Below the pieces are notes generated by a model, which worked only from the letters and a program-made list of their open reading frames with translations, was not told where the DNA came from and made no database searches. A stretch of 63,895 bases of DNA from contig CANRFW010000001.1 of NCBI GenBank assembly GCA_947630035.1, positions 1 to 63,895 of the forward strand, written 5' to 3'. A program made the translations under genes and the position numbers. Positions 7,248-63,895 of the stretch are shown here, piece after piece (the first letter of the stretch is position 1; each line of letters starts with the position of its first letter). The stretch is from an uncultured Clostridia bacterium (lineage in GTDB: Bacteria; Bacillota; Clostridia; Christensenellales; Borkfalkiaceae).

Positions 7248-8996
7248 TTAACTATTCTTACTTACAAACTCGTAGAGCTTGTTGAGAAGCCCCGCGGAGA
7301 TGTTGTTGCGGAATCTTCCGAGATAGATGAACACCTTGTTGAAGAACTCCTTGTTGTTGCCGCCGATGACATAGGTCGGGAGGTAGCCGATCGGCCCGAA
7401 CTTGCCCGCGATGAACAGGTCGCCGAACTCGTTCTTCTCCTGCGGGGTGAGGCCGTTGATGAAGGGGTCGTAGGTGTACTGCACGTCCATGCCGTAGGCG
7501 GCGGGGGATTGGTACCCCGCGGGCATGGGCGCATAGGGCTGGACGGGCTGGCGGTAGGGCTGCCCGTAGGGATCGTAGGGCTGCGCCTCATACGCGGGCG
7601 CGGGATTGGGTGCGGGTGCGGGCGGTACGCCGTGCGCAAGCGCCTCCATCGAGCGCTCGAATTCGCTCATCGGCTCCTGCGGCTCCGCAACGGGCGCGGG
7701 AGCGGGAGCGGGTGCAGGTTCGGGAGCAGGGGCGGGCGCAGGCGCGGGTGCGGGTGCGGGCGCGGGTTCTTCCGCCTTCTCCTCGGCGGGCGCGGGTTCT
7801 TCCGCCTTCTCCTCCTCGGGTTCCTCCGTCTCGCCGAGCAGACCCTCTTCCTCCTTCTTCGCGTGCGCGCCTTCCTTTTTCTTACGGGCGACGCCGAGGA
7901 TGGTCGCGATCATCGCGACGAAGAACGCCGCAAAGCTCGCCGCGAGGAGCAAAATGACGGGAAGGGTCGCGAAAATGCCCCACGAGGGCGAACCGCTCAC
8001 GGGTTTCAGTGCGAGGATGAGGGCAGCCGCGGCGGAGAACAGAAGCTGCAGGATCGCGCGGACGAGGTCGAAGGGGTAGAAACGGTCGCTCGCGAGCCTC
8101 GCAGCCGAGATCGCGAGATTGATGAGAATGAAAAGCTGCGCGGGGATGAGGATGAGACGGTGGAGCAGGGTAACGGTTTCGAGACCCGAGTAAGCAAAGA
8201 TAAAGGAGGCGGCAAACTGCGTATCCTTCCCGGGGTAATAGGTACCGAAGAAGGCGAGGGCGAAGAGGACGAAGAGGACCGCATTGAGTACGCCGTATTT
8301 TTTCTTGCTTGCGATCCCCGCAACGATCAAGGCTCCCGCGAGCAAAACGAGCGTTACAAGAGAGGTAATATCAAACGCAGCCAAGAGATTGTCCGCCGTG
8401 CCGCTGTAGACTACCCCGTAAAGAAGAGAATATTGCGCACAGTAGATGGCGCCGTAGGCGAAGAGGGGAAGGGCGACCGCGGCATAGGCGCAGCGCTTTA
8501 CGTTCTCGGGCTTTTTCCCCGCGAACGCGGCGATCGCCGTGCCGACGGTGGCGATGAGGGCTGGAATGAGGAGCCAGCTCAGCCAATAGATGGCCACGAT
8601 CGACTGGTACATGAGACCGTATTCGGCGATATTGGAAAGGAGTACTTTGATGTTTGCGTACGTTTTCAGTTCCGCTGCGCCGTTTTTGAAGAGGTCCCAG
8701 AAGATATAGACGAGGTTCCCGAAATGGCTCCCGCTCCACTTGGAGGAGGTGGGGAGGGCGGGAAGGAAGGCGATCTTGGGAAGGAGTTTCCCGAGATAGC
8801 CGATGAAAAGCCCGAGGATCCCGAACACGATGCCGAAAGCGGCGAGTGCGCGCCAACCGGGGGCGACCTTTCCGGCCTCCTCCTTCTTGCCCGCATTTTC
8901 CTGTTCCGTATCCTCCTCGGAGGGTACCATGTCCGCGTTTGCGCGTTCTTCGGCGTAAGTTGCTTCGGCTTCTTCGAGTTGAACGATATCCGACAT
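7248..8996 (-). CDS. Polytopic membrane protein with an acidic N-terminus, (Pro-Ala)n linker and conserved C-terminal domain
   Basis: 582-aa ORF with many TM segments. A low-complexity PAPAPAPAPAPAPEPAPAPAPAP linker is encoded at about 7690-7800. The family was not recognised. Confidence 0.7.
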   Translation of the reverse strand: MSDIVQLEEAEATYAEERANADMVPSEEDTEQENAGKKEEAGKVAPGWRALAAFGIVFGILGLFIGYLGKLLPKIAFLPALPTSSKWSGSHFGNLVYIFWDLFKNGAAELKTYANIKVLLSNIAEYGLMYQSIVAIYWLSWLLIPALIATVGTAIAAFAGKKPENVKRCAYAAVALPLFAYGAIYCAQYSLLYGVVYSGTADNLLAAFDITSLVTLVLLAGALIVAGIASKKKYGVLNAVLFVLFALAFFGTYYPGKDTQFAASFIFAYSGLETVTLLHRLILIPAQLFILINLAISAARLASDRFYPFDLVRAILQLLFSAAAALILALKPVSGSPSWGIFATLPVILLLAASFAAFFVAMIATILGVARKKKEGAHAKKEEEGLLGETEEPEEEKAEEPAPAEEKAEEPAPAPAPAPAPAPAPEPAPAPAPAPVAEPQEPMSEFERSMEALAHGVPPAPAPNPAPAYEAQPYDPYGQPYRQPVQPYAPMPAGYQSPAAYGMDVQYTYDPFINGLTPQEKNEFGDLFIAGKFGPIGYLPTYVIGGNNKEFFNKVFIYLGRFRNNISAGLLNKLYEFVSKNS

Positions 8997-55376: not shown

Positions 55377-56522
55377 ATGCGAGTTACGGGCATTGAGGTC
55401 GGGGAGCGAGAGAAAAAGGCAATCGAGAGTATCTATCGGTACCTGAAGGAAGCCTTCCCGCTTGCGGAATATGACGACCGCGGGGAGATCCTCGGGATCG
55501 GGGAGCCGGGCAGGCGGCTTCTCTGCTATTTCTCCGTGGACGCGGGGGGACTGCGCATCAAATTCAAGGATAGCAAGGCAGTTCACCTTTCCGAAAATAT
55601 CGATTGGGTCCCCATGGCGGACAGTGCGGTCCGCCTCTTCCGCGAGAACGGTTTTGCTCTGAAGCAGGAGGGGTATGCGCCGAAGCGGGAGAGGAAGAAG
55701 GTCCCCGTAAAAGAGACGAAGATCCCCGAAAATCGCACCCCATCCGATAAAAATAAGCTGCAAGGGGGGCTGGAGGACTATCTTTACGGGCTCGGGGAGG
55801 AGATGGCGGAGATCCCCGAGAGCGCAAGGGGATGCAAATTCGGCGGCTGTTCCGTCAGGCTCTTTCATTGCCTTCAGGACCTCGGCGTCGTCACCGTCGG
55901 GGACCTTTTCCGCTACACGCCCGCGGAGATCTGCAGAACGAAAAATTTCGGCAAACAGTGCCTTGCCGAACTCTATCGCATCCTCCGCGCGGTCAACGGG
56001 AAAGCGCCTGCTCTGACCGCCCGATCCGCTCCGCCCATGATCGATTACGAAACTTCCTACGAAGATTATAAGGCAAATGAAGATAGGTATAAAGAGCTGT
56101 ATGCCGCCCTCTCCGATCTCTTCTTCCGCCTTGCCGGGACGAAGCTCGACGAGCGGATGAGAACGGTCGTGTATGCGCGGCTCGGTCTCGGCGGGAGCGC
56201 GAAAACTTTGCGGGGGATCGGCGCCGATCTCGGCATTTCGCAGGAGCGCGTCAGACAAATTTTTGTCAAATCGATGAGAAGACTGATGAATAGTCCCCCG
56301 CTCGACATGATGAAAGAACTCCGCGAATTTCAAAGCGCGGCCGAGGCATACCCCGTCGGCGGGCTTCTTGTCTGTTGCTATCTTGAGAGCGGAGAACTCT
56401 TCACGGAGTTTGTGTGCAAACGGTTTTTCCGGCAGGAGTTGCAGAAAGACGCCCTCCGCGACGCCGTCCGCAAGGGAGGTTTGAAAGAAGGGAGCGCCGC
56501 GGGGCAAAAGGTATTCAGATAG
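55377..56522 (+). CDS. Protein combining an RNAP alpha-CTD-like HhH module with a sigma-70 region 4 HTH
   Basis: 381 aa. SVRLFHCLQDLGVVTVGDLFRYTPAEICRTKNFGKQCLAELYRIL resembles RpoA alpha-CTD. RMRTVVYARLGLGGSAKTLRGIGADLGISQERVRQIFVKSMRRL resembles sigma-70 region 4. Confidence 0.7.
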   Translation: MRVTGIEVGEREKKAIESIYRYLKEAFPLAEYDDRGEILGIGEPGRRLLCYFSVDAGGLRIKFKDSKAVHLSENIDWVPMADSAVRLFRENGFALKQEGYAPKRERKKVPVKETKIPENRTPSDKNKLQGGLEDYLYGLGEEMAEIPESARGCKFGGCSVRLFHCLQDLGVVTVGDLFRYTPAEICRTKNFGKQCLAELYRILRAVNGKAPALTARSAPPMIDYETSYEDYKANEDRYKELYAALSDLFFRLAGTKLDERMRTVVYARLGLGGSAKTLRGIGADLGISQERVRQIFVKSMRRLMNSPPLDMMKELREFQSAAEAYPVGGLLVCCYLESGELFTEFVCKRFFRQELQKDALRDAVRKGGLKEGSAAGQKVFR

Positions 56523-56605
56523 GGAAGCGCTCTTCCGCGTTGTAGGCGAGAACGAAGTCTTCCGCATTTTTCCGATTTCGGATGATTTCGGGATATTGTC
56601 GCACG

Positions 56606-56654
56606 GGAAATTTCCGAAAAAAGGAAATTTCCGTTTTCCGCATGGTGTTACAAT
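56606..56654 (+). promoter_or_regulatory. Twin palindrome operator plus extended -10 promoter
   Basis: GGAAATTTCC at 56606-56615 and 56623-56632, TGtTACAAT at 56646-56654, and the ATG at 56661 after a 6-nt gap. The same arrangement lies at 59076-59124. Confidence 0.55.
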
Positions 56655-56660
56655 AGCTTC

Positions 56661-57128
56661 ATGCCTACCGTTCAGATCAAGACTTTGGAACTGCTTATCA
56701 TCCGTGAACTCCGCGGCATGAACCGTTATAACGCGAGGGCGCACGCGGCATTTGCGCAAATGCGCCTGCACTTCTCAAACGAAGAATATCTCCACGGGAT
56801 CGAGCATAGCAAGATCATCAAGAAGATCTATATCGATAACTTTTATAAATACCGCACCGCCGAGGCGCTCTCGCAGGAGCTGCATATCGACGTGAAATCC
56901 CTGCTTCTCTACCGTAAATATTATCTCCGCTTCTTTGCGAAATCCTATCTTCTTCTCTCCGTTCCGACCGAGGCCGACCTCGCTTTGCTTTACGAAGCCC
57001 TTACTTCGAACCGTGCGGAACAGCTCGAACAGACGGAGGACCCGCAGAGATCGCGGGAACCGCAAGGGGCGGGGGAGCCGCGCTACCCGGAGAAGGAACT
57101 CTTTCCCGATATCGTCTTCCGGCGATAG
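56661..57128 (+). CDS. Hypothetical HTH-like small regulator (ArpU/RinA- or sigma-region-4-like), paralog 1
   Basis: 155 aa, identical to paralog 2 through residue ~129 (..EQTEDPQ). A possible HTH is YRTAEALSQELHIDVKSLLLYRKYY. The family assignment is tentative. Confidence 0.6.
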   Translation: MPTVQIKTLELLIIRELRGMNRYNARAHAAFAQMRLHFSNEEYLHGIEHSKIIKKIYIDNFYKYRTAEALSQELHIDVKSLLLYRKYYLRFFAKSYLLLSVPTEADLALLYEALTSNRAEQLEQTEDPQRSREPQGAGEPRYPEKELFPDIVFRR

Positions 57129-57141
57129 GGCACAGCCTTCC

Positions 57142-58131
57142 TCATGAGATCTTAAAATATCTCTGATTTCTGCTTGTCGGTCTGTCGGGGCAGGTCATGC
57201 CGATCAATCCCGCCTCCAGTGCGGGGATAAGATAATTTTGCCGAAAACCGTTTCTCGACTTCAAACCGAGTTTTTCCATAAGTTCCCGTGCGGACATGGG
57301 GTAGACCTCAATGACGGACATGAGCGCGGCGATTTGATGATTGATATGATTGATATGGTTTCGCGTATCCGAAACGATCCCCTCAATTGCCGCTTTTATC
57401 ATGTCAAGCATAAATAAAATGAACCGATCGGATTTACCCTCGGAGGTCGAAAGGGAAATCGCGCGGTAATATTCTTCCTGATGATCTTTGATCAGGCTTT
57501 CAATGGGGATCCACTCAAAAATCGGTTTCCACTTTGCAAGCAATGCCGTTTGCCACAGCCTGCCCATTCTTCCGTTTCCGTCGAGGAAGGGGTGTATGAA
57601 CTCAAACTCATAATGAAAAACGCACGATTTGATGAGGATATGCGTTTTACTTGTATTGAGCCAATGAAAGAGTTCGGCAACCAATTCATGGACCATAGAA
57701 TGGGGCGGCGCAACATGAATGACTTTCCCCTGTTCATTGATTACGCCCACAGGCGCAGTACGCAGATGCCCTGCCTCCTCGACCAAATCTTTCATCATGA
57801 GTGCATGGGCTTTCAATAGATCCGATAGGGAGTACGGATTCAACTCGGGGAGGAGGGCGTACACGCTATGTGCATTCCTGACGGCCGAAATATCGTCCTT
57901 GGGCGCAAGTACCCTTTTCCCTTCGATGACATCCGTCACTTGCTCCAAGGATAAGGTATTGTTTTCAATCGCAAGGGAAGAATGAATCGACTTGATCCGA
58001 TTGATACGGCGCAGCCTGGGCAATTTATCTAAATTCCGGATGCCGTTCATCTGTCCTAAAAGTTCCATAATGTCCGACGTCAACCCGAGCATCTCCTCGG
58101 TAATCTCATAAGGGGGAATATATTGGTCCAT
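57142..58131 (-). CDS. fic: Fic family protein (class II with N-terminal inhibitory motif, C-terminal wHTH-like domain)
   Basis: 329 aa with Fic motif HPFLDGNGRMGRLW and inhibitory S-x-x-x-E-N motif SLAIEN. SD AAGGAGG. Confidence 0.9.
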   Translation of the reverse strand: MDQYIPPYEITEEMLGLTSDIMELLGQMNGIRNLDKLPRLRRINRIKSIHSSLAIENNTLSLEQVTDVIEGKRVLAPKDDISAVRNAHSVYALLPELNPYSLSDLLKAHALMMKDLVEEAGHLRTAPVGVINEQGKVIHVAPPHSMVHELVAELFHWLNTSKTHILIKSCVFHYEFEFIHPFLDGNGRMGRLWQTALLAKWKPIFEWIPIESLIKDHQEEYYRAISLSTSEGKSDRFILFMLDMIKAAIEGIVSDTRNHINHINHQIAALMSVIEVYPMSARELMEKLGLKSRNGFRQNYLIPALEAGLIGMTCPDRPTSRNQRYFKIS

Positions 58132-58337
58132 TGCGAGCCTCCTTTACAACGGTTATTATAGCATAAGCCGAAAGAAAAGTCAATATCTTACACATTATCT
58201 TATCCATTATCTTGCACATTCTGCGAAGAAGATATCCCACGGCGCCGCCTGAATGGAAAAAAGTCCTTCGTGTAAAAGCGAGGGACTTTTCCTGCGGGAC
58301 GTCATGAACGCAAGCGAACGATTTCGGCGCTTCCTTT

Positions 58338-58823
58338 CTACGGCAGCTCGGCTGTCTTCAATTTATCCTTGAACTTTTCATACGTGCTGCTTACGAAGTC
58401 GCCCGCATACTTGCGGATCTCTCCGTCATTCAAGACAAAGTAGCCGTTCTTGACGGCGTACCCGTAAAACGTAAACGTGTACTCTGCCCTGCCGTCCTTC
58501 AGGAACGTGATGACGACTTTATCCCAATAGTTTTCCGTGTCGATCTTTTGATAAGTTTCTTTGCTATACAAACTGCCGTCTATTTGTTGATAAAGCCCGT
58601 TTATGATCTCCCGCTCTTCCGACGTGCCGAAGTAATCCTCATCGGCATCGAGCGGCATCCAATCGGAATGCTTGGAGATATGATGATATTCGAGCGAAAC
58701 CTCATCGTAATTTTCGATATCCAAACCCAATTCGAGCCTCGGCCAGCCTTTCATATCCCCGCCGCAGGCGCATAAGAGAAGCAAAAGAAAGGGGAGCAGA
58801 AAATAAAAAACGTTCTTCCTCAT
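58338..58823 (-). CDS. Hypothetical lipoprotein
   Basis: 161 aa from MRKNVFYFLLPFLLLLLCAC after SD GCAGGAGGTG. The upstream part of the tracked ORF runs into repeat R2 and is discounted. Confidence 0.65.
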   Translation of the reverse strand: MRKNVFYFLLPFLLLLLCACGGDMKGWPRLELGLDIENYDEVSLEYHHISKHSDWMPLDADEDYFGTSEEREIINGLYQQIDGSLYSKETYQKIDTENYWDKVVITFLKDGRAEYTFTFYGYAVKNGYFVLNDGEIRKYAGDFVSSTYEKFKDKLKTAELP

Positions 58824-59130
58824 AAAACACCTCCTGCTTATAAAATGATCGGGGGGCAAAATGCCCCGCAAAACAACGATCCTTTCCGATTTCATTCTAC
58901 CATAGAACCGCAAAGAAATCAAGCCCGAATTTTGGGGGAGAGGAGAAGCGGCTCGAAAAGCGGCCGCCGCGTCACAAGGGATATTCTGATGGGGCAGCGC
59001 TCTTCCGTGTTGCAGGCGAGAACGAAGTCTTCCGCATTTTTCCGATTTCGGATGATTTCGGGACATTGTCGCACGGGAAATTTCCGAAAAAAGGAAATTT
59101 CCGTTTTCCGCATAGTGTTACAATAGCTTC

Positions 59131-59670
59131 ATGCCTACCGTTCAGATCAAGACTTTGGAACTGCTTATCATCCGTGAACTCCGCGGCATGAACCGTTATA
59201 ACGCGAGGGCGCACGCGGCATTTGCGCAAATGCGCCTGCACTTCTCAAACGAAGAATATCTCCACGGGATCGAGCATAGCAAGATCATCAAGAAGATCTA
59301 TATCGATAACTTTTATAAATACCGCACCGCCGAGGCGCTCTCGCAGGAGCTGCATATCGACGTGAAATCCCTGCTTCTCTACCGTAAATATTATCTCCGC
59401 TTCTTTGCGAAATCCTATCTTCTTCTCTCCGTTCCGACCGAGGCCGACCTCGCTTTGCTTTACGAAGCCCTTACTTCGAACCGTGCGGAACAGCTCGAAC
59501 AGACGGAGGACCCGCAGGGAGCGTGGGAGCCGCAGGGGACGCAGGAGTTGCAGAGAGTGTTGGAGCCGCAGGGGACACAGGAGTTGCCGAGAGTGCGGGA
59601 ACCGCAGGAGATGAGGGAGCCGCGCTACCCGGAGAAGGAACTCTTTCCCGATATCGTCTTCCGGCGATAG
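59131..59670 (+). CDS. Hypothetical HTH-like small regulator, paralog 2 with an expanded C-terminal repeat
   Basis: 179 aa. It matches paralog 1 except that the C-terminal tail carries EPQGTQELQRVL and EPQGTQELPRVR units. Confidence 0.6.
   Translation: MPTVQIKTLELLIIRELRGMNRYNARAHAAFAQMRLHFSNEEYLHGIEHSKIIKKIYIDNFYKYRTAEALSQELHIDVKSLLLYRKYYLRFFAKSYLLLSVPTEADLALLYEALTSNRAEQLEQTEDPQGAWEPQGTQELQRVLEPQGTQELPRVREPQEMREPRYPEKELFPDIVFRR
59510..59625 (+). repeat. In-frame tandem repeat (36-nt units) in the paralog 2 C-terminus
   Basis: GAGCCGCAGGGGAC(G/A)CAGGAGTTGC(A/C)GAGAGTG(TT/CG)G at 59527-59562 and 59563-59598, flanked by shorter EPQ/EPR units. These units are absent from paralog 1. Confidence 0.85.
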
Positions 59671-59979
59671 GGCACGGCCTTTGAAAAAGCCTCGGCGAAA
59701 TCTTCCCATCCAAAGTCAAATCGAACTTGTCTTTTACGGCAGCGGCTAATCTTGTTTTATCGCCAATACCATTCGCTCTTTATGGCACTTTTGCGGGTGC
59801 TTGACCGCGAAGCAGCGCGGCCAAGCACCCGCAAAACCGTAAAAACCAAAAAAAGTCATCGAACAAATAGGGATCCCGAAGAAGATTGCGGGGCAAGATT
59901 TTTTGAAAAAAAGTGCAACATGAAAAGCAGCTCTTGCCGCTTGCGGGAAGAGTGTAAAAAATTTGCGTCAGCGAAAGCA

Positions 59980-60290
59980 ACGGCGGCGCAAGGGATATTC
60001 AGATAGGGAAGCGCTCTTCCACGTTGTAGGCGAGGCCGAAGTCTTCCGCATTTTGCCAATTTTGGATGATCTCGAGACATTCGACGAATGCGTATTTCTC
60101 ACCGAGGGCGAACGGAACGTTCTCCATCCCGTTCAATTCTTCGAGATGGTATTCCAGTAGATCGATCAAAAATTGCAAAACTTCCTCTGCAGACTGTTTC
60201 ATTTGTACCACCCACTATGAAAATAGTGTAACACCCCGGCGCGCGGAAAATTTCCGAAAAAAGGAAATTTCGGTTTTTTTGCATCTTCTT
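59980..60290. repeat. Cassette copy R3 (partial, retains the intact small gene)
   Basis: 60011-60090 aligns with 56527-56600 and 58997-59070. Palindromes GGAAAATTTCC (60245-60255) and GGAAATTTCG (60263-60272) are present. The rightward 155-aa gene is missing. Confidence 0.8.
59999..60202 (-). CDS. Hypothetical 67-aa protein, the intact version of the gene remnant in R1/R2
   Basis: MKQSAEEVLQFLIDLLEYHLEELNG... with SD GGGTGG and TGtTACACT upstream on the minus strand. Its C-terminus IIQNWQNAEDFGLAYNVEERFPI matches the frame remnants EIIRNRKNAEDFVLA.N.EER in R1 and R2. Confidence 0.55.
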   Translation of the reverse strand: MKQSAEEVLQFLIDLLEYHLEELNGMENVPFALGEKYAFVECLEIIQNWQNAEDFGLAYNVEERFPI

Positions 60291-60819
60291 CGACGCAAAA
60301 AGCACCGCTCCCGTCCCTGCATTTTGTCAAGGCACCCTTGCGCAGTATTATAGCAAAGAGGAAAGACAAAGGCAAGATTCGGACGAAAAAATTTTTCAAA
60401 TCATAACAAACGCCCCGATAGCGAAGGAAGTCCACGGGGGTTTTCTTTTTATGGGAAGAAGACGACCGCGGGAAGAAATTGCCACTCTTCCGATTGCAGG
60501 CAAAGAAAAAACCTAAACCGTCACTTTGCATAAGTGTTCGATTTAGGTTGAGAGTGGTGAGGTGGACGTTAATTATCCGAACACCGTTTTTCCCGTAAAA
60601 GACGGATTTGGCTTTATGATTTGGCTTTAAAATCTATAAAAACTGCTGATTTTCCGCCAATAAATGTATGGATTCCGCGGGATTGACTGCAGTTTCATTT
60701 CAGTACATTCACATTGAAATATGTGCTAAAATTGTCTTGTGCCGCCTTAAATCACAGACGGTGCAAGAACTATTTTAGGAGGAATTTTTGAAAGTGATTC
60801 GATATATAGACGAGATGAC

Positions 60820-60848
60820 TTGATTAATTTGTAAAAAAGAATTATAAT
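60820..60848 (+). promoter_or_regulatory. Sigma-A type promoter of the ATPase gene
   Basis: TTGATT (60820-60825), 17-nt spacer, TATAAT (60843-60848). SD AAGGAG precedes the ATG at 60887. Confidence 0.6.
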
Positions 60849-60886
60849 AAAGAAAATATTCTAGCATATCCGCAATAAGGAGAAAA

Positions 60887-62376
60887 ATGAACGCAAAAGC
60901 AGAAACTTTACTTGCAATGTACGAGGCATCGAAACGCTATACAAATTTCGGGGAAGTTATTTGTCGGCTTGATATAAACGGAATTAAAGGGACAAATTGC
61001 AGCATTCCTTTTGATTTCCCCATCACGGCAATTTCGGGATATAATGGGGCAGGGAAAAGTACGATAGCGCAAATCGCATTATGCGCCTACAAGGAAGTTG
61101 ATATAGACAGCCATCGAAGTTACTTAAAAGAGATTTCTTTGTAAAAACACTTTTGGACAAGCAACCGTACTTGCCGGAAGCAAGAATCGTAGTGTCGTAT
61201 GCTTGTGAAGAACAAAGAGAACATGCTATCCAGTTGTCGATATTTTCCAACGATGAAGCAGATAGATATACCAAACAAATTCAAATGCGTTATGCGACTG
61301 ATCGATGGGCGGGATACAGGCATCAACCGAGCCGAAGAGTCTTCTATTTTGGAATGAGTTATTTCATCCCGTATCAAGAACTAAACCGCAATCTTTTAAG
61401 GGATGGCCGTGCGAATATTAGGACTAGCAAGTCTTATGACTCTCGTATCGTGAAGTTGGCGGCGGATATTTTATCCATTGCTTATACCGAATTGCAAAAT
61501 AACAAGGTTGTAAATGAAAAGCGTGAAACGCAAGTAATTTCCGCAAAAAAATCCACAGTCGCATATTCGGAGAATCACATGGGGTGCGGTGAAGGGCGTC
61601 TATTAAAGTTGATAGATGCTTTAGAGAATGCGCCTAATCAAAGTTTGTTTGTAATTGAGGAGCCGGAAACAGCACTCCATCAATTAGCGCAACATAAATT
61701 GTCCCAGTATTTTTTAGATGTTTGTTTGCGGAAGCGCCACCAAATCATTTTTACTACGCATTCTTCCGATCTGTTGACTGCATTGCCGCCGCAAGGGCGT
61801 AAATTTTTGATTCGGGGAGAATCACAATCTCAAGTGGTGAACAATCCTACAATTGCCGAAGTAACCAATTTATTATCTGGTGGGAATAATAAGGGATTAA
61901 CAATAGTTACAGAGGATAAGGTGGCGGCAGAGTATCTGAAAGAAATAATACGCAACAACGCGCACCTGTTTGACAACTGCGCCATTTATCCCTTGGACAC
62001 CAGTTATTCAGAAGTGAAAAAATATGTGGAATATGCGAGAAGATGCTCCTTCGCAGTATGCGGCATAGTGGATGAGAGCCGAAGAGCCGATGCGGAAAAG
62101 TTTATTGTAGCATTCCCGGAAGATAATCCACCCGAAAGAACTTTTTTCGGCGACGAATATATTAAAACATTTTTGCTCAATGAATATGGTTTTGATTGTG
62201 CAAAACAACTTCTGCAAGCCCATCACGAATATTTTTCCACGCTGAGTAGTGCCACAGGTGACAGTATTGATTATTTGCTTCCGCGTATTGTCAAAGAATA
62301 TGTGAGAAGCCGTCCCAAGGGATATTTTGATTTTCTTTATAATAATTTAGAAAAGTGGTTAGGTGACCTAAAATAA
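60887..62376 (+). pseudogene. OLD/PARIS(AriA-AriB)-like ABC-type ATPase with a C-terminal Toprim/DUF4435-like region, split by a frameshift
   Basis: ORF 60887..61144 carries Walker A GYNGAGKST. ORF 61153..62376 carries MGCGEGR, Walker B LFVIEEPETALH, H-loop FTTHSS, then TIVTEDKVAAEY...GIVDESRRAD. The two frames overlap at 61102-61144. Confidence 0.65.
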
Positions 62377-62384
62377 ACACGTAG

Positions 62385-62424
62385 GTTGAGGCGGTCTCGA
62401 ATTATATCGTGACCGCCTCAATTT
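62385..62424. terminator. Bidirectional hairpin terminator
   Basis: TTGAGGCGGTC (62385-62395) pairs with GACCGCCTCAA (62410-62420), followed by TTT, between convergent genes. Confidence 0.75.
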
Positions 62425-62450
62425 GCAAACTTTCAGAAATTCAATCAATA

Positions 62451-63125
62451 TCAAAGCCTTCTTTTTGAAAGGCGCTTAAAATAATTCTTATAAAAATCAT
62501 GCATCGAGCCGAAGAAGTCTCGTTCCGAGGCGCTGTTTTCCCCGCGCTCCCGTTTGAGATTGATCAGTTCAAACGTCGTGATTAGGTCTGCGATCTGGAA
62601 CAGCCGATAGTTCGCGGGCTTGATTTTGCGTCGGAAATCCACGCTTGCGTCGTGCAAAAGAGACGCCAAAATTCCCGTGAGTTGTTTTTGTCCGCCGTCA
62701 TAATAGACGACAAGTCGATCGAATCCGCCTAAAAATTGGGCATGGTCATCCAAAAAATCTTTGATCTTTTTCGAGAGCGCGCCGATAAGCTGAAATTCGT
62801 TCATTTGCTCTTCTTTTTCTACCACAAAAACGGCGTATGTAAATGGGATCTTCGCGGCAAAGTTCATGAAACTGTTGAGCAGTTGTTTCCGTTCGTCGAT
62901 TGTCCAATACTGATAGGGCGGCTCTCGGCGGATGAGCGGCGCGGTATGCAGACAATGATCTTGAAATCCCCGCGCGGAGAGATGCCCGTCAAGCCGCGAG
63001 AGTTCTTCCTTGATGCTTTCGCTTTGGTCGTGAAAGAGCATTGTCACCAAATAATACGGCGCGCGCTTGTCATATTTCCCGAAATCGCCCGATTCGTCTA
63101 TGAAAATGCTTAAAAGTTTTTCCAT
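62451..63125 (-). CDS. DUF3800 domain protein
   Basis: 224 aa. The N-terminal LSIFIDESGDFGKY is the hallmark DUF3800 start, and the gene has AT-rich codon usage. Confidence 0.75.
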   Translation of the reverse strand: MEKLLSIFIDESGDFGKYDKRAPYYLVTMLFHDQSESIKEELSRLDGHLSARGFQDHCLHTAPLIRREPPYQYWTIDERKQLLNSFMNFAAKIPFTYAVFVVEKEEQMNEFQLIGALSKKIKDFLDDHAQFLGGFDRLVVYYDGGQKQLTGILASLLHDASVDFRRKIKPANYRLFQIADLITTFELINLKRERGENSASERDFFGSMHDFYKNYFKRLSKRRL

Positions 63126-63207
63126 CGTAAAAAAATTTGGCGAGGAATACCCCCGCCGCGGTGGGCCTCGGGAATTTCAACCCAGCCCGTAATTATTTTC
63201 TACTATT

Positions 63208-63235
63208 ATTATAACCGATTTTAAAGAATTGTCAA
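63208..63235 (-). promoter_or_regulatory. Sigma-A type promoter of the DUF3800 gene
   Basis: The minus strand reads TTGACA (63235-63230), 16-nt spacer, TATAAT (63213-63208). Confidence 0.55.
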
Positions 63236-63383
63236 CCCTTTTGTGCCAAGTTTTTTACGGCTACCTGCCGAAATAAAGTAAACGGCGGGCAGAAAATTCT
63301 CTGCCCGCCGTGCCGCTTTTTATGATCGGGATACGAAGCGACGAACCCAACCGCCATCCTCGGCGGCTACATCCCTATGGTTT

Positions 63384-63572
63384 TCAATGGGATATTTTAT
63401 CGTTTTCTTTTTTATTTAGTTGTTGTTTCCGCCGCTCGGCTTGCCACTCTTCAAACTCTCTTCTTCCTTCTTCCGTTTCAAATAATTGTTGAATCGAGGG
63501 CAATATCGCGCGCGCCAGCGTTTCGATCTCATAGTCGGGGATCCCCGTCCTATTTTTGCGCCTACGTCCCAT
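63384..63572 (-). CDS. Hypothetical small protein
   Basis: 62 aa (MGRRRKNRTGIPDYEIETLARAILPSIQQLFETEEG...). There is no well-placed SD. A downstream hairpin lies at about 63283-63309. Confidence 0.4.
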   Translation of the reverse strand: MGRRRKNRTGIPDYEIETLARAILPSIQQLFETEEGRREFEEWQAERRKQQLNKKENDKISH

Positions 63573-63619
63573 CCTGTGTCAGTCGATAAAATTACCTCCT
63601 TGTAAGATTTATTCAGTTG

Positions 63620-63895
63620 TCATTTTCCGTCTTTGCCGCTGTGATTGATTCTGATAGGCGTGTAGCACGCGGCGGGGTTGAGTTTCCGTCTGGACTTGGA
63701 GAGGAGGTCTTTATACTCGCTCGGATACGCCGTTTCCATGTCCCTGATCGCGCTCGCCGCGTCCTCGTTCCTGTGCGCCCGCCGTTCCGCATCCTGCCAA
63801 TCTTGAAAGAGGTTTCCTACCTCTCTTTGAAGTCGCTTCTGTTCCACGCGGTAGGCGGCGTTCTCCGCCCGCAATCGGGTGATCTCCTGTTCGCT
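63620..63895 (-). CDS. 3' end of a larger gene (coiled-coil C-terminus), 5' part outside the window
   Basis: The frame stays open to the window edge (SEQEITRLRAENAAYRVEQKRLQREV...). The tracked M at 63874 is an internal TTG. A possible mobilisation or recombination protein C-terminus is speculation. Confidence 0.45.
   Translation of the reverse strand, partial: SEQEITRLRAENAAYRVEQKRLQREVGNLFQDWQDAERRAHRNEDAASAIRDMETAYPSEYKDLLSKSRRKLNPAACYTPIRINHSGKDGK

What the first reader, a model, noticed from the sequence alone, without database searches (positions are those of the whole stretch)
56500..60290. Triplicated regulatory cassette in three different states of decay
One module occurs three times in direct orientation. 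The inferred ancestral module has a small leftward gene, a twin-palindrome operator flanked by divergent extended -10 promoters, and a rightward HTH-like gene of about 155 aa.

- R1 (about 56500-57140) and R2 (about 58965-59682) keep the rightward gene. They retain only the last 25 or so codons of the leftward gene (EIIRNRKNAEDFVLA.N.EER), fused by an identical internal deletion to the operator.
- R3 (about 59980-60290) keeps the intact leftward gene (59999..60202) and the operator, but has lost the rightward gene.
- Even the sequence left of each copy ends similarly (..CAA(A/G)GG(T/A)ATTC(A/T)GAT(A/G)G). The stop codon of the alpha-CTD/sigma-r4 gene is therefore part of the repeat.

This looks like a repeatedly duplicated genetic-switch module of a mobile element or a cassette array.
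Basis: seen in the sequence. Interest (0 to 1): 0.7.

Follow-up and report, generated by a model that had tools for sequence, protein, structure and literature searches.

The report
Split, triplicated two-gene transcription switch
Three partial copies of a previously undescribed two-gene regulatory switch (a small acidic protein and a DNA-binding protein read outward from one palindromic control site) lie at the edge of an accessory-gene island in a gut Clostridia genome. The intact switch is conserved in related genomes and sits next to integrases in phage-like elements.

Summary
R1 (56499-57139), R2 (58969-59681) and R3 (59983-60284) are direct repeats far beyond chance. Contigs from three other samples tile 57079-60367 at 99.4-100% identity.

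The inferred ancestral module exists intact in at least 12 other lineages, mostly Christensenellaceae/Clostridia MAGs. It has a 65-71 aa acidic helical protein, a roughly 100-nt spacer, and a 121-135 aa basic helix-turn-helix (HTH) protein. The spacer holds the palindrome AAATTTCC-N7-GGAAATTT between two mirrored extended -10 promoters. The palindrome centre lies 41-42 nt upstream of the HTH gene's ATG, and the -10 ends 6 nt before that ATG, which implies a leaderless mRNA.

Neither protein matches a Pfam family. The HTH family is a distant relative of the DUF1492/LtrB phage late activators. The same gene pair sits beside a serine or tyrosine integrase in IMG/VR contigs.

- **R1 and R2:** "HTH gene plus operator" units that share a 158-bp deletion. 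Their centres have been homogenised by gene conversion.
- **R3:** "small gene plus operator". Its HTH gene has been replaced by 41% GC foreign DNA.
- **Whole genome:** one intact small gene, two HTH genes and three operators remain.

The function is inferred, not shown. No integrase or att-type evidence in the window supports a mobile cassette array.

The parts
55377..56522 (+). Neighbouring 381-aa gene (RNA_pol_A_CTD + Sigma70_r4 domains). Its last 8-10 codons and stop codon form the left edge of repeat R1.
   Evidence: Pfam hits at 1.2e-10 and 6.1e-10. The tail is repeated at R2 and R3.
56499..57139 (+). Repeat R1: left-gene remnant + operator + rightward promoter + rightward gene.
56515..56597 (-). 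R1 remnant of the leftward gene (codons 41-67 plus stop). Conserved residues are lost: E41Q, L43P, W49R, G56V.
56608..56630 (.). R1 operator AAATTTCC-GAAAAAA-GGAAATTT. Its centre is 42 nt upstream of the rightward ATG.
56646..56654 (+). R1 rightward extended -10 (TGTTACAAT). It ends 6 nt before the ATG and no Shine-Dalgarno is present, so the mRNA is predicted to be leaderless.
   Evidence: Sequence. The spacing is conserved in other lineages.
56661..57128 (+). Rightward gene, copy 1 (155 aa): basic six-helix HTH protein with a low-complexity C-terminal tail.
57142..58131 (-). Fic/DOC gene (SoFic-like) between R1 and R2, convergent with the rightward gene.
   Evidence: Pfam Fic 1.3e-21. PADLOC SoFic 2.3e-41.
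58338..58823 (-). Predicted lipoprotein gene (161 aa, MRKNVFYFLLPFLLLLLCACGG...) between R1 and R2.
   Evidence: the same protein occurs on the independent contig L054
58969..59681 (+). Repeat R2: same structure and same deletion junction as R1. It has 72 extra nt of 18-nt tandem repeats in the gene's 3' part.
58985..59067 (-). R2 remnant of the leftward gene. It has further lost Y59, F65 and the stop codon.
59078..59100 (.). R2 operator
59116..59124 (+). R2 rightward extended -10 (TGTTACAAT)
   Evidence: in register with R1 (+2470)
59131..59670 (+). Rightward gene, copy 2 (179 aa). Its first 387 nt are identical to copy 1.
59502..59613 (+). 18-nt (6-codon, EPQG-like) tandem repeats in the tail of copy 2. 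R1 has fewer units (57032-57085).
   Evidence: (family D3)
59682..59982 (.). Spacer between R2 and R3, with no convincing gene. It contains a 21-bp-arm hairpin at 59789-59836.
   Evidence: (I4)
59983..60284 (+). Repeat R3: intact leftward gene + its promoter + operator. Homology stops just before the rightward -10.
59999..60202 (-). Intact leftward gene (67 aa, pI 4.05, confident helical model).
60225..60233 (-). Leftward extended -10 (TGTTACACT on the - strand). A GGTGG Shine-Dalgarno lies 5 nt before the ATG.
   Evidence: the mirrored element is seen in other modules
60248..60270 (.). R3 operator. Its centre is about 41 nt from the predicted leftward transcription start.
   Evidence: sequence
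60285..63895 (.). 41-44% GC DNA that replaces the rightward gene of R3. It holds an interrupted HEC-04-like AAA ATPase (60887-62376) and DUF3800 (62451-63125).

Best explanation
**The unit (mechanism inferred)**
- The repeated unit is a self-contained two-gene transcriptional switch typical of Christensenellales-type Clostridia and of some integrative elements.
- The basic rightward protein is a distant relative of the DUF1492/LtrB phage late activators, with a sigma-region-4-like HTH. It most likely binds as a dimer to the inverted repeat AAATTTCC-N7-GGAAATTT.
- That site is centred about 41.5 nt upstream of both divergent transcription starts, in place of a -35 element. One bound dimer could therefore control its own leaderless mRNA and the divergent mRNA of the 67-aa acidic protein together.
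- The acidic protein most likely acts on the regulator by protein-protein contact, as an anti-activator or modulator, rather than on DNA.

**History in this genome (shown by sequence)**
- The unit has been multiplied by recombination at the boundary between 60% GC chromosome and a lower-GC accessory/defence island.
- R1 and R2 are 'regulator + operator' units carrying one 158-bp deletion of the small gene's 5' part and promoter. Their central 500 nt or so have recently been made identical by gene conversion, while both edges stay diverged.
- R3 is the complementary 'small gene + operator' unit. Its regulator gene was replaced by foreign DNA.
- The locus is therefore a split, redundant version of the switch rather than three dead relics. 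One intact small gene could be controlled in trans by either regulator copy.
For: **Shown**
- The repeats, junctions and ORFs are as described.
- Independent contigs from other samples tile 57079-60367.
- The intact pair, with a spacer of about 100 nt, occurs in L001-6, L012-27, L033-36 and L044.
- The palindrome is conserved. Its centre lies 41-42 nt before the rightward ATG, and the -10 ends 6 nt before the ATG, in 12 or more lineages.
- The operator stays with the rightward gene when the left gene is absent (L007-11, L046-52). No such palindrome was seen by eye near the left gene where it occurs without the right gene (L029).
- In distant pairs the palindrome changes together with the regulator. 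In L043 it is TTTTTCGACA-N5-TGTCGAAAAA.
- The right protein is basic (core pI 9.45) and modelled as six helices with an HTH at residues 67-97.
- The right family links to DUF1492. Family member P0055 scores 32.3 bits against PF07374 (cut-off 21.5), and hhalign of the family against P0055 gives 96% probability.
- DUF1492/LtrB proteins are experimentally shown activators (PMC3753634).
- The left protein is very acidic (pI 4.05). Its model is confident (pLDDT 94.5) and shows no HTH-like match.
- Gene conversion: R1 versus R2 differ at 11 of 46 positions at the left edge and 2 of 503 in the centre (Fisher p = 3e-11). In the left 46 nt R1 is closer to R3 (5 differences) than to R2 (11).
- The remnants have lost invariant residues.

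**Inferred**
- Which protein binds the operator.
- Whether regulation is activation or repression.
- The role of the acidic protein.
- Regulation of R3 in trans.
Against: - No experiment or solved structure supports DNA binding by the right protein.
- Foldseek gave no significant PDB match. The best hits were E about 4, to sigma region 4 and LuxR-type HTH domains.
- The window's own right protein does not match DUF1492, or any Pfam, NCBIfam or PHROG model.
- A site overlapping the -35 region of TG-extended -10 promoters fits a repressor as well as a class II activator.
- The role of the left protein is a guess from charge, size and gene order. Only one uncharacterised phage protein resembles its fold.
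- All three copies share the same left boundary, yet have different DNA immediately to the left. Plain duplication does not easily explain this, and site-specific insertion explains it better.
Confidence: 0.55

Rival explanations
1. **Tandem accretion at an attachment site.** Each unit (R1+Fic+lipoprotein; R2+spacer; R3+ATPase/DUF3800...) would be the remains of an integrative element or an integrase-less, cis-mobilisable cassette. Each inserted site-specifically into the 3' end of the 381-aa gene. Each brought its own copy of the target's last codons followed by its switch module, as happens with tandem islands at tRNA genes.
For: - All three copies begin at the same place, about 25-35 nt beyond the left gene's stop. 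Each encodes a ..AAxQG(I/V)FR* tail like the end of the 381-aa gene.
- The DNA immediately to the left of each copy is unrelated.
- Elsewhere the pair lies at the integrase end of integrative elements (L038, L043). L043 also carries DUF3800, like the window.
- The cargo is defence- or toxin-like: SoFic-like Fic and a HEC-04-like ATPase here, zeta toxin in L007, and TIR-LRR in L028.
- GC content falls from 0.60 to 0.41-0.52 across the array.
Against: - The last 10 kb of the window holds no integrase, excisionase or relaxase gene, and no fourth (attR) copy of the edge motif.
- R1 and R2 share an identical internal deletion. They therefore derive from one another, or were converted, rather than arriving independently.
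- In Christensenellaceae the module sits at conserved chromosomal positions without integrases (rnpB-module-394-aa gene in L001, L024 and L025).
- The contig ends 3.6 kb after R3, so the far end cannot be examined.
Confidence: 0.25
2. **Dead relics.** The module was duplicated by unequal or illegitimate recombination and all three copies are decaying pseudo-modules with no remaining regulatory function.
For: - The left-gene remnants in R1 and R2 are clearly degenerate.
- R3 has lost its partner gene.
- The neighbouring ATPase is interrupted.
- The right genes carry an unusual repeat-expanded tail that is absent from all homologues.
Against: - Both right ORFs are intact. They keep all 40 invariant family positions and differ only in the tail.
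- The R3 left ORF keeps every invariant residue, its promoter and its Shine-Dalgarno.
- All three operators are perfect in the 16 specified positions.
- 'Right + operator' alone is a recurrent and apparently stable form in other lineages.
Confidence: 0.12
3. **Assembly artefact.** The A-B-A arrangement (R1-Fic-lipoprotein-R2) would be produced by mis-joining across the 500-nt or so identical tract. The true state would be one chromosomal copy plus a variant strain or a circular form.
For: - The tract identical between R1 and R2 (about 500 nt) is longer than short-read k-mers.
- The independent contigs break inside or next to the repeats: L053 ends at 57079 and L054 ends at 59169.
Against: - Four distinct flank junctions exist, and three of them recur in independent samples.
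- R2 and R3 lie on one independent contig, L055.
- The edges of R1 and R2 differ by many substitutions and a 72-nt indel. At least two right-gene copies with different neighbours must therefore exist.
Confidence: 0.05
4. **Other roles for the two proteins.** The two proteins would not be a regulator/modulator pair. The small acidic protein, or a host factor, binds the palindrome. Alternatively the pair is an unconventional toxin-antitoxin or defence sensor.
For: - The left family is far larger (577 clusters against 46 representatives) and more conserved than the right family.
- The left protein also pairs with Xre-type HTH proteins, so it has a life of its own.
- The neighbours are often toxin or defence genes.
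Against: - The palindrome follows the right gene, not the left gene, when the two are separated.
- Divergent transcription is atypical for toxin-antitoxin pairs.
- Neither protein matches PADLOC models. The PADLOC scan covered the neighbouring genes only, and both proteins lacked hits in Pfam, NCBIfam and PHROGs.
- The left model has no DNA-binding-like fold match.
Confidence: 0.1

Closest known systems
Ltr super-family of phage late transcriptional activators (RinA, ArpU, LtrA/Sigma70_r4, LtrB/DUF1492, LtrC; Quiles-Puchalt et al. 2013, PMC3753634)
   Same: - Both are small (about 100-140 aa) proteins of Firmicutes mobile elements with a sigma-region-4-like C-terminal HTH.
- A borderline member of the right family (P0055) passes the DUF1492 model and PHROG 36/248 'transcriptional regulator/activator'.
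- P0055 aligns to the right-family profile with 96% hhalign probability.
   Different: - The window protein itself matches no model.
- The gene is not upstream of a terminase or late operon.
- It is divergently paired with a small acidic protein.
- It carries a palindromic site at its own promoter, which suggests autoregulation.
- It is also found at fixed chromosomal places without phage genes.
Divergent-promoter lysogeny switches of temperate phages (lambda CI/Cro; lactococcal TP901-1 CI/MOR, recalled from memory and not tested here)
   Same: - Two small genes are read outward from one short control region whose operator overlaps both promoters.
- One transcript is predicted to be leaderless, as lambda cI is from PRM (my own knowledge).
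- The pair lies next to integrases in L038 and L043.
- In TP901-1 a small (about 70 aa) modulator acts on the repressor. This is the role proposed here for the 67-aa protein.
   Different: - There is a single palindrome instead of an array of operators.
- The DNA-binding partner is Ltr/sigma-r4-like, not Xre/CI-like.
- The small partner is acidic and its model shows no HTH or Cro-like fold.
- No sequence similarity was detected.
Class II (-41.5) activator sites at divergent promoters, such as CRP/FNR-type (established knowledge)
   Same: One dyad-symmetric site is centred about 41-42 nt upstream of each of two divergent starts, at promoters that lack a -35 hexamer (sequence).
   Different: - The protein family is unrelated.
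- The promoters have TG-extended -10 elements and may be active without an activator, so repression is equally possible.
Tandem accretion of integrative elements and cis-mobilisable elements (CIMEs) at one att site (established concept, from memory)
   Same: Direct repeats of the target gene's 3' end separate successive accessory segments in one orientation.
   Different: - No integrase and no terminal att copy were found in the window.
- The repeat includes a whole regulatory module.
- Two copies share an internal deletion.

Membership tests
DUF1492 / LtrB (Pfam PF07374) late-activator family | Sequence match to PF07374 above the gathering score | tested here: not met
   - The window proteins (155 and 179 aa) have no Pfam hit at E <= 0.1.
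- Only 2 of 49 family members hit DUF1492, and only one of them (P0055, 32.3 bits) is above the cut-off.
- The relationship is distant: hhalign gives 96% probability for P0055.
DUF1492 / LtrB (Pfam PF07374) late-activator family | Gene placed just upstream of terS / the late operon of a phage | tested here: not met
   No terminase or structural genes lie near any copy in the window or in the chromosomal loci.
DUF1492 / LtrB (Pfam PF07374) late-activator family | Activates transcription from a cognate promoter | not testable with these tools
   This needs reporter assays. Only the conserved site at about -41.5 is seen.
CI/Cro-type bistable switch | Two divergently transcribed genes sharing an operator region that overlaps both promoters | tested here: met
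   The spacer is about 100 nt, with mirrored extended -10 elements and a central palindrome in 12 or more lineages.
CI/Cro-type bistable switch | Both products are HTH DNA-binding proteins of the Xre/Cro kind | tested here: not met
   - The left protein has no HTH model hit, and its AF2 model (pLDDT 94.5) has no DNA-binding fold match.
- The right protein is not Xre-like.
CI/Cro-type bistable switch | Several adjacent operator sites with graded affinity | tested here: not met
   There is only one 23-bp inverted repeat per module.
Integron-type cassette array | IntI-type integrase with attI, and attC sites bounding promoterless cassettes | tested here: not met
   - There is no integrase in 53-63.9 kb.
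- The repeats are whole regulatory modules with their own promoters, not attC-like imperfect palindromes.
Tandem integrative elements / CIME accretion | Direct repeats of an att core at every junction, including the far end | tested here: inconclusive
   Three junction copies share a tail of about 25-35 nt. No further copy lies downstream in the window, and the contig ends at 63895.
Tandem integrative elements / CIME accretion | A cognate integrase in the array or elsewhere in the genome | tested here: inconclusive
   None is present in the window. The rest of the genome is not available.
Type II toxin-antitoxin pair | Two small co-directional, co-transcribed genes, one of which is a known toxin fold | tested here: not met
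   The genes are divergent, and neither has a toxin or antitoxin model hit.

The most novel reading that the evidence does not exclude
The left/right pair would be a new, widespread kind of mobile-element switch in gut Clostridia. An Ltr-like activator sits at -41.5 of two mirrored promoters, one of which gives a leaderless mRNA. A new-fold acidic anti-activator (577 or more clusters, with no known structure) opposes it. In this genome the switch would head a tandem array of integrase-less accessory/defence cassettes (Fic, ATPase, DUF3800) accreted at one site in the 3' end of an alpha-CTD/sigma-r4 gene. The module would then double as the recombination handle and the shared control unit of the array.
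Probability: 0.15. Interest if true: 0.75.

Novelty: new variant of a known kind. Interest (0 to 1): 0.5.

Why it matters
**Two uncharacterised families.** The finding exposes two protein families that form a compact, highly stereotyped genetic switch.
- The acidic 67-aa family has at least 577 clusters at 90% identity. Its predicted fold is confident and has no solved analogue.
- The HTH family has 46 representative clusters in 1.84 billion proteins.

**A system that can be tested directly.** The 23-bp palindrome, two mirrored promoters and two small proteins are enough for experiments. Such experiments would show how regulators of the Ltr/sigma-region-4 type can be used outside phage late-gene control.

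**Where it occurs.** The switch is found in Christensenellales, an abundant and poorly studied gut lineage, and next to integrases in phage-like elements. It may therefore be a common control unit of their mobile and accessory DNA.

**The triplication itself.** It is of local interest. It documents gene conversion and module splitting at the border of a defence island.

Tried and rejected
- **Family searches.** Pfam, NCBIfam, PHROGs and PDB sequence searches of both proteins gave nothing for the window proteins.
- **Structure searches.** Foldseek of the right model against PDB gave only E of about 4 or more. Foldseek of the left model against PDB gave nothing. Against BFVD it gave one uncharacterised Siphoviridae protein, TM 0.79.
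- **tblastn of the left protein.** There was no match in the plasmid and phage record collections.
- **Viral contig scan.** The right-family scan of viral contigs found nothing.
- **Neighbouring 381-aa gene.** The exact protein look-up and the metagenome scan both found nothing. The state of this site in related strains could therefore not be examined.
- **RNA families.** Rfam found no RNA family in 56300-61000. The only hits were chance-level snoRNA matches at E of about 0.3. The window holds no tRNA.
- **A second within-genome duplication.** Loci L025 and L026 looked like one but were rejected. The two contigs overlap at 100% identity over 3066 nt at their ends, so they are one locus.
- **A conserved cargo gene.** This idea was rejected. 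The neighbours of the module differ between lineages: Fic, zeta toxin, a membrane protein, polysaccharide deacetylase, LRR proteins and sugar-nucleotide enzymes.
- **A shared terminator at the left edge.** This was considered and rejected. Only R3 has a hairpin followed by a T-run there.
- **A short left-gene remnant in L007.** The match (GCGTTGTAGCGAGG) is too short to call.

Full report
**1. What is in the sequence**

The region holds three direct copies of one module.
- A 99-nt block starts at 56499, 58969 and 59983 and is 87-88% identical. A 38-nt operator block starts at 56600, 59070 and 60240. It is 100% identical between R1 and R2 and 92% in R3.
- R1 (56499-57139) and R2 (58969-59681) are collinear throughout. 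The exception is a 72-nt difference in the number of 18-nt tandem repeats near the 3' end of the rightward ORF.
- The rightward ORFs are 56661..57128 (155 aa) and 59131..59670 (179 aa). The only intact leftward ORF is 59999..60202 (67 aa).
- In R1 and R2 the leftward gene is reduced to codons 41-67. It is joined to the operator by the same junction: 158 nt of R3 (60082-60239) are replaced by GT.
- R3's similarity to R1/R2 ends at 60284, between the operator and the place where the rightward -10 should be. From there on the DNA is 41-44% GC.
- The 26-nt operator and the left-edge motif each occur three times in the window and nowhere else. Shuffles give 0.00-0.01 expected.

**2. Is it an assembly artefact?**

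Three contigs assembled from other samples of one ENA study match the window.
- L053 matches 57079-58307 at 100%.
- L054 matches 57594-59169 at 99.9%.
- L055 matches 58982-60367 at 99.4%.
- Together they confirm the junctions R1-tail|Fic and lipoprotein|R2, and the whole R2-spacer-R3 stretch on a single contig.
- The junction between the 381-aa gene and R1, and continuity through R1, remain supported by this contig only.
- The contigs break in or beside the repeats, as expected when a repeat is present more than once.

**3. The 'ancestral module' exists elsewhere**

- The rightward protein has few relatives: 8 clusters by word search and 46 representatives among 1.84 billion proteins.
- Nearly all relatives with enough flanking DNA show the same layout. 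A 65-71 aa gene and a 121-135 aa gene are read outward from a spacer of about 100 nt. This holds for L001-6, L012-19, L021-27, L033-36 and L044.
- Named hosts are Christensenella/Christensenellaceae and uncultured Clostridia MAGs.
- The spacer has a strict design. The central inverted repeat AAATTTCC-N7-GGAAATTT matches 13-16 of its 16 specified bases.
- The repeat's centre lies 41-42 nt before the rightward ATG in at least 12 lineages. A TG-extended -10 (TGTTACAAT, TGCTACAAT or GTTATAAT) ends exactly 6 nt before that ATG, and no Shine-Dalgarno is present. The rightward mRNA is therefore predicted to be leaderless.
- A mirrored -10 serves the leftward gene, which has a Shine-Dalgarno and a leader of about 16 nt.
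- Joining R3's left half to R1's right half gives 57 + 42 nt, which is the canonical spacer.

**4. The two proteins**

- Neither protein matches Pfam, NCBIfam or PHROGs, and neither matches PDB sequences.
- *Right protein.* Its core is basic (pI 9.45). It is modelled as six helices (pLDDT 78) with an HTH around residues 67-97, in the motif ALSxELHIDxKTLLxYRKxYL. Its 30-55 residue repeat tail is disordered and absent from all homologues.
- Foldseek gave nothing significant for the right model. The top weak hits were sigma region 4 and LuxR-type HTH domains.
- A bridge to a known family exists. P0055 matched the family profile in the full HMM search at E = 4e-4 and aligns to it with 96% hhalign probability. 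It also passes Pfam DUF1492 (32.3 bits, cut-off 21.5) and hits PHROG 36/248 'transcriptional regulator/activator'.
- DUF1492 is the LtrB family of phage late-gene activators, one of four sigma-region-4-related families shown to activate terS promoters (PMC3753634).
- *Left protein.* It is very acidic (pI 4.05) and strongly conserved, with 23 invariant positions among close homologues. It belongs to a much larger family of 577 clusters.
- The left protein's model is confident (pLDDT 94.5): two long helices and two short ones. It has no solved analogue. Only one uncharacterised Siphoviridae protein resembles it, at TM 0.79.

**5. Where the parts travel**

- In IMG/VR contigs the left protein is again divergently paired with a distant right-like protein (hhalign 97%). 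The pair lies directly beside a large serine recombinase in L038. In L043 it lies beside a tyrosine integrase followed by DUF3800. These pairs have different palindromes, for example TTTTTCGACA-N5-TGTCGAAAAA.
- The most common left-family member (P0099) follows an Xre-type HTH gene in transposon-like regions with serine recombinases, RelB/ParE and TnpV.
- 'Right gene + operator' occurs without any left gene in L046-52, where an Xre gene lies upstream, and in L007-11, where a zeta-toxin pair lies downstream.
- In L028 a right-gene fragment and an inverted operator-plus-left gene lie next to a TIR-LRR gene.
- In Christensenellaceae the pair keeps a fixed chromosomal place next to the RNase P RNA gene across species.
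- The palindrome therefore follows the right gene, and both single-gene forms recur in nature.

**6. History of the three copies**

- R1 and R2 differ at 11 of 46 positions at the left edge. They differ at only 2 of 503 positions from 56545 to 57047, with none in the first 387 nt of the ORF. They differ again at 5 substitutions plus the 72-nt repeat indel in the tail (Fisher p = 3e-11).
- In the left 46 nt R1 is closer to R3 (5 differences) than to R2 (11). In the next 53 nt R1 and R2 differ once, and both differ from R3 at 7-8 positions.
- This mosaic indicates old copies whose centres were recently homogenised by gene conversion. The shared deletion lies inside the converted tract, so it may have been copied from one to the other.
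- The remnants are pseudogenes. Invariant residues are replaced (E41Q, L43P, W49R, G56V), and R2 has also lost Y59, F65 and the stop codon.
- The two right ORFs, the R3 left ORF with its promoter, and all three operators are intact.
- All three copies start at the same point, about 25-35 nt beyond the left stop codon. Each encodes a tail like that of the 381-aa alpha-CTD/sigma-r4 gene, and the DNA to the left of each copy is unrelated.
- Plain duplication does not easily explain this common boundary. It is the main argument for site-specific accretion.
- Against accretion, no integrase and no far-end repeat are present, and the contig ends 3.6 kb beyond R3.

**7. How it most likely works**

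This part is inferred, apart from the geometry.
- The right protein binds the dyad as a dimer at about -41.5 of both promoters.
- It thereby controls its own leaderless transcript and the small gene together.
- Its kinship to Ltr activators and the missing -35 elements favour activation. The TG-extended -10 elements leave repression possible.
- The acidic partner probably modulates the regulator by direct contact.
- In this genome the R3 small gene would be controlled in trans by the R1/R2 regulators.

**8. Verdict**

- The 'genetic-switch module' reading is supported. The 'mobile cassette array' reading is possible but unproven here.
- 'Three states of decay' is better described as two complementary, partly converted derivatives.
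- The switch itself is undescribed. It is a new variant of the divergent-promoter switch, built from an Ltr-like regulator and a new small acidic protein.

Noticed in passing
window 60887-62376 (+): An AAA_15/AAA_21 ATPase most similar to the PADLOC candidate defence protein HEC-04 (2.6e-39). It is split into an 85-aa P-loop ORF and a 407-aa ORF in different frames, so it is probably a frameshifted pseudogene.
   Followed up: partly
window 62451-63125 (-): A DUF3800 gene lies in the 41-44% GC segment. A DUF3800 gene also lies next to the integrase and switch pair in the IMG/VR contig L043, at 7684-8379.
   Followed up: partly
window 55377-56522 (+): A 381-aa protein combines an RNA polymerase alpha-CTD-like domain with sigma-70 region 4. 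It weakly resembles the central region of BREX PglW and MzaA. No relatives were found by exact look-up or metagenome scan.
   Followed up: partly
window 57142-58131 (-): The Fic/DOC protein with a Fic-like C-terminal domain best matches the PADLOC model for the SoFic defence system (2.3e-41). It is convergent with the R1 regulator gene, only 13 nt from its stop codon.
   Followed up: partly
window 57032-57085 and 59502-59613 (+): 18-nt (six-codon, E/P/Q/G-rich) tandem repeats form a disordered C-terminal extension of the regulator. The extension is absent from every homologue. The unit number differs between R1 and R2 by 72 nt.
   Followed up: partly
window 59789-59836: A unique 21-bp-arm hairpin (95% complementary, 6-nt loop) lies in the gene-less spacer between R2 and R3. 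No T-run follows it on either strand, and no other copy occurs in the window.
   Followed up: partly
window 56000-63895: GC content falls stepwise from about 0.60 (1-56000) to 0.47-0.53 (56000-60000) and 0.41-0.44 (60000-63000). The repeats therefore sit on a compositional boundary.
   Followed up: no
window 63384-63895 (-): A 62-aa ORF (MGRRRKNRTGIPDYEIETLARA...) and a coiled-coil ORF that runs off the contig end (..SEQEITRLRAENAAYRVEQKRLQ..). Neither has a family assigned. They may belong to a mobile element that continues beyond the window.
   Followed up: no
L001 9176-9603 (-): In Christensenella-type MAGs the intact switch lies directly next to the RNase P RNA gene (Rfam RF00010, 270 bits). 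A 33-aa 'gene' called there is inside the RNA gene.
   Followed up: no
L028 4134-6333: A TIR + BspA-type LRR protein (537 aa) is followed by a frameshifted fragment of a right-family gene. An inverted operator and left gene come next, making a second example of a rearranged module beside a defence-like gene.
   Followed up: partly
L029-L032 3632-4204: The commonest left-family protein (P0099, indexed in 838 blocks of the collection) is co-directional with a 96-aa Xre HTH gene. The region also carries RelB/ParE, large serine recombinases, TnpV, and a two-component system plus ABC-transporter cargo.
   Followed up: partly
L001 11906-13126 and L024/L026: A collagen-triple-helix-repeat protein with highly variable internal repeats lies two genes from the switch. 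It is the likely reason contigs L025 and L026 end there and overlap.
   Followed up: no
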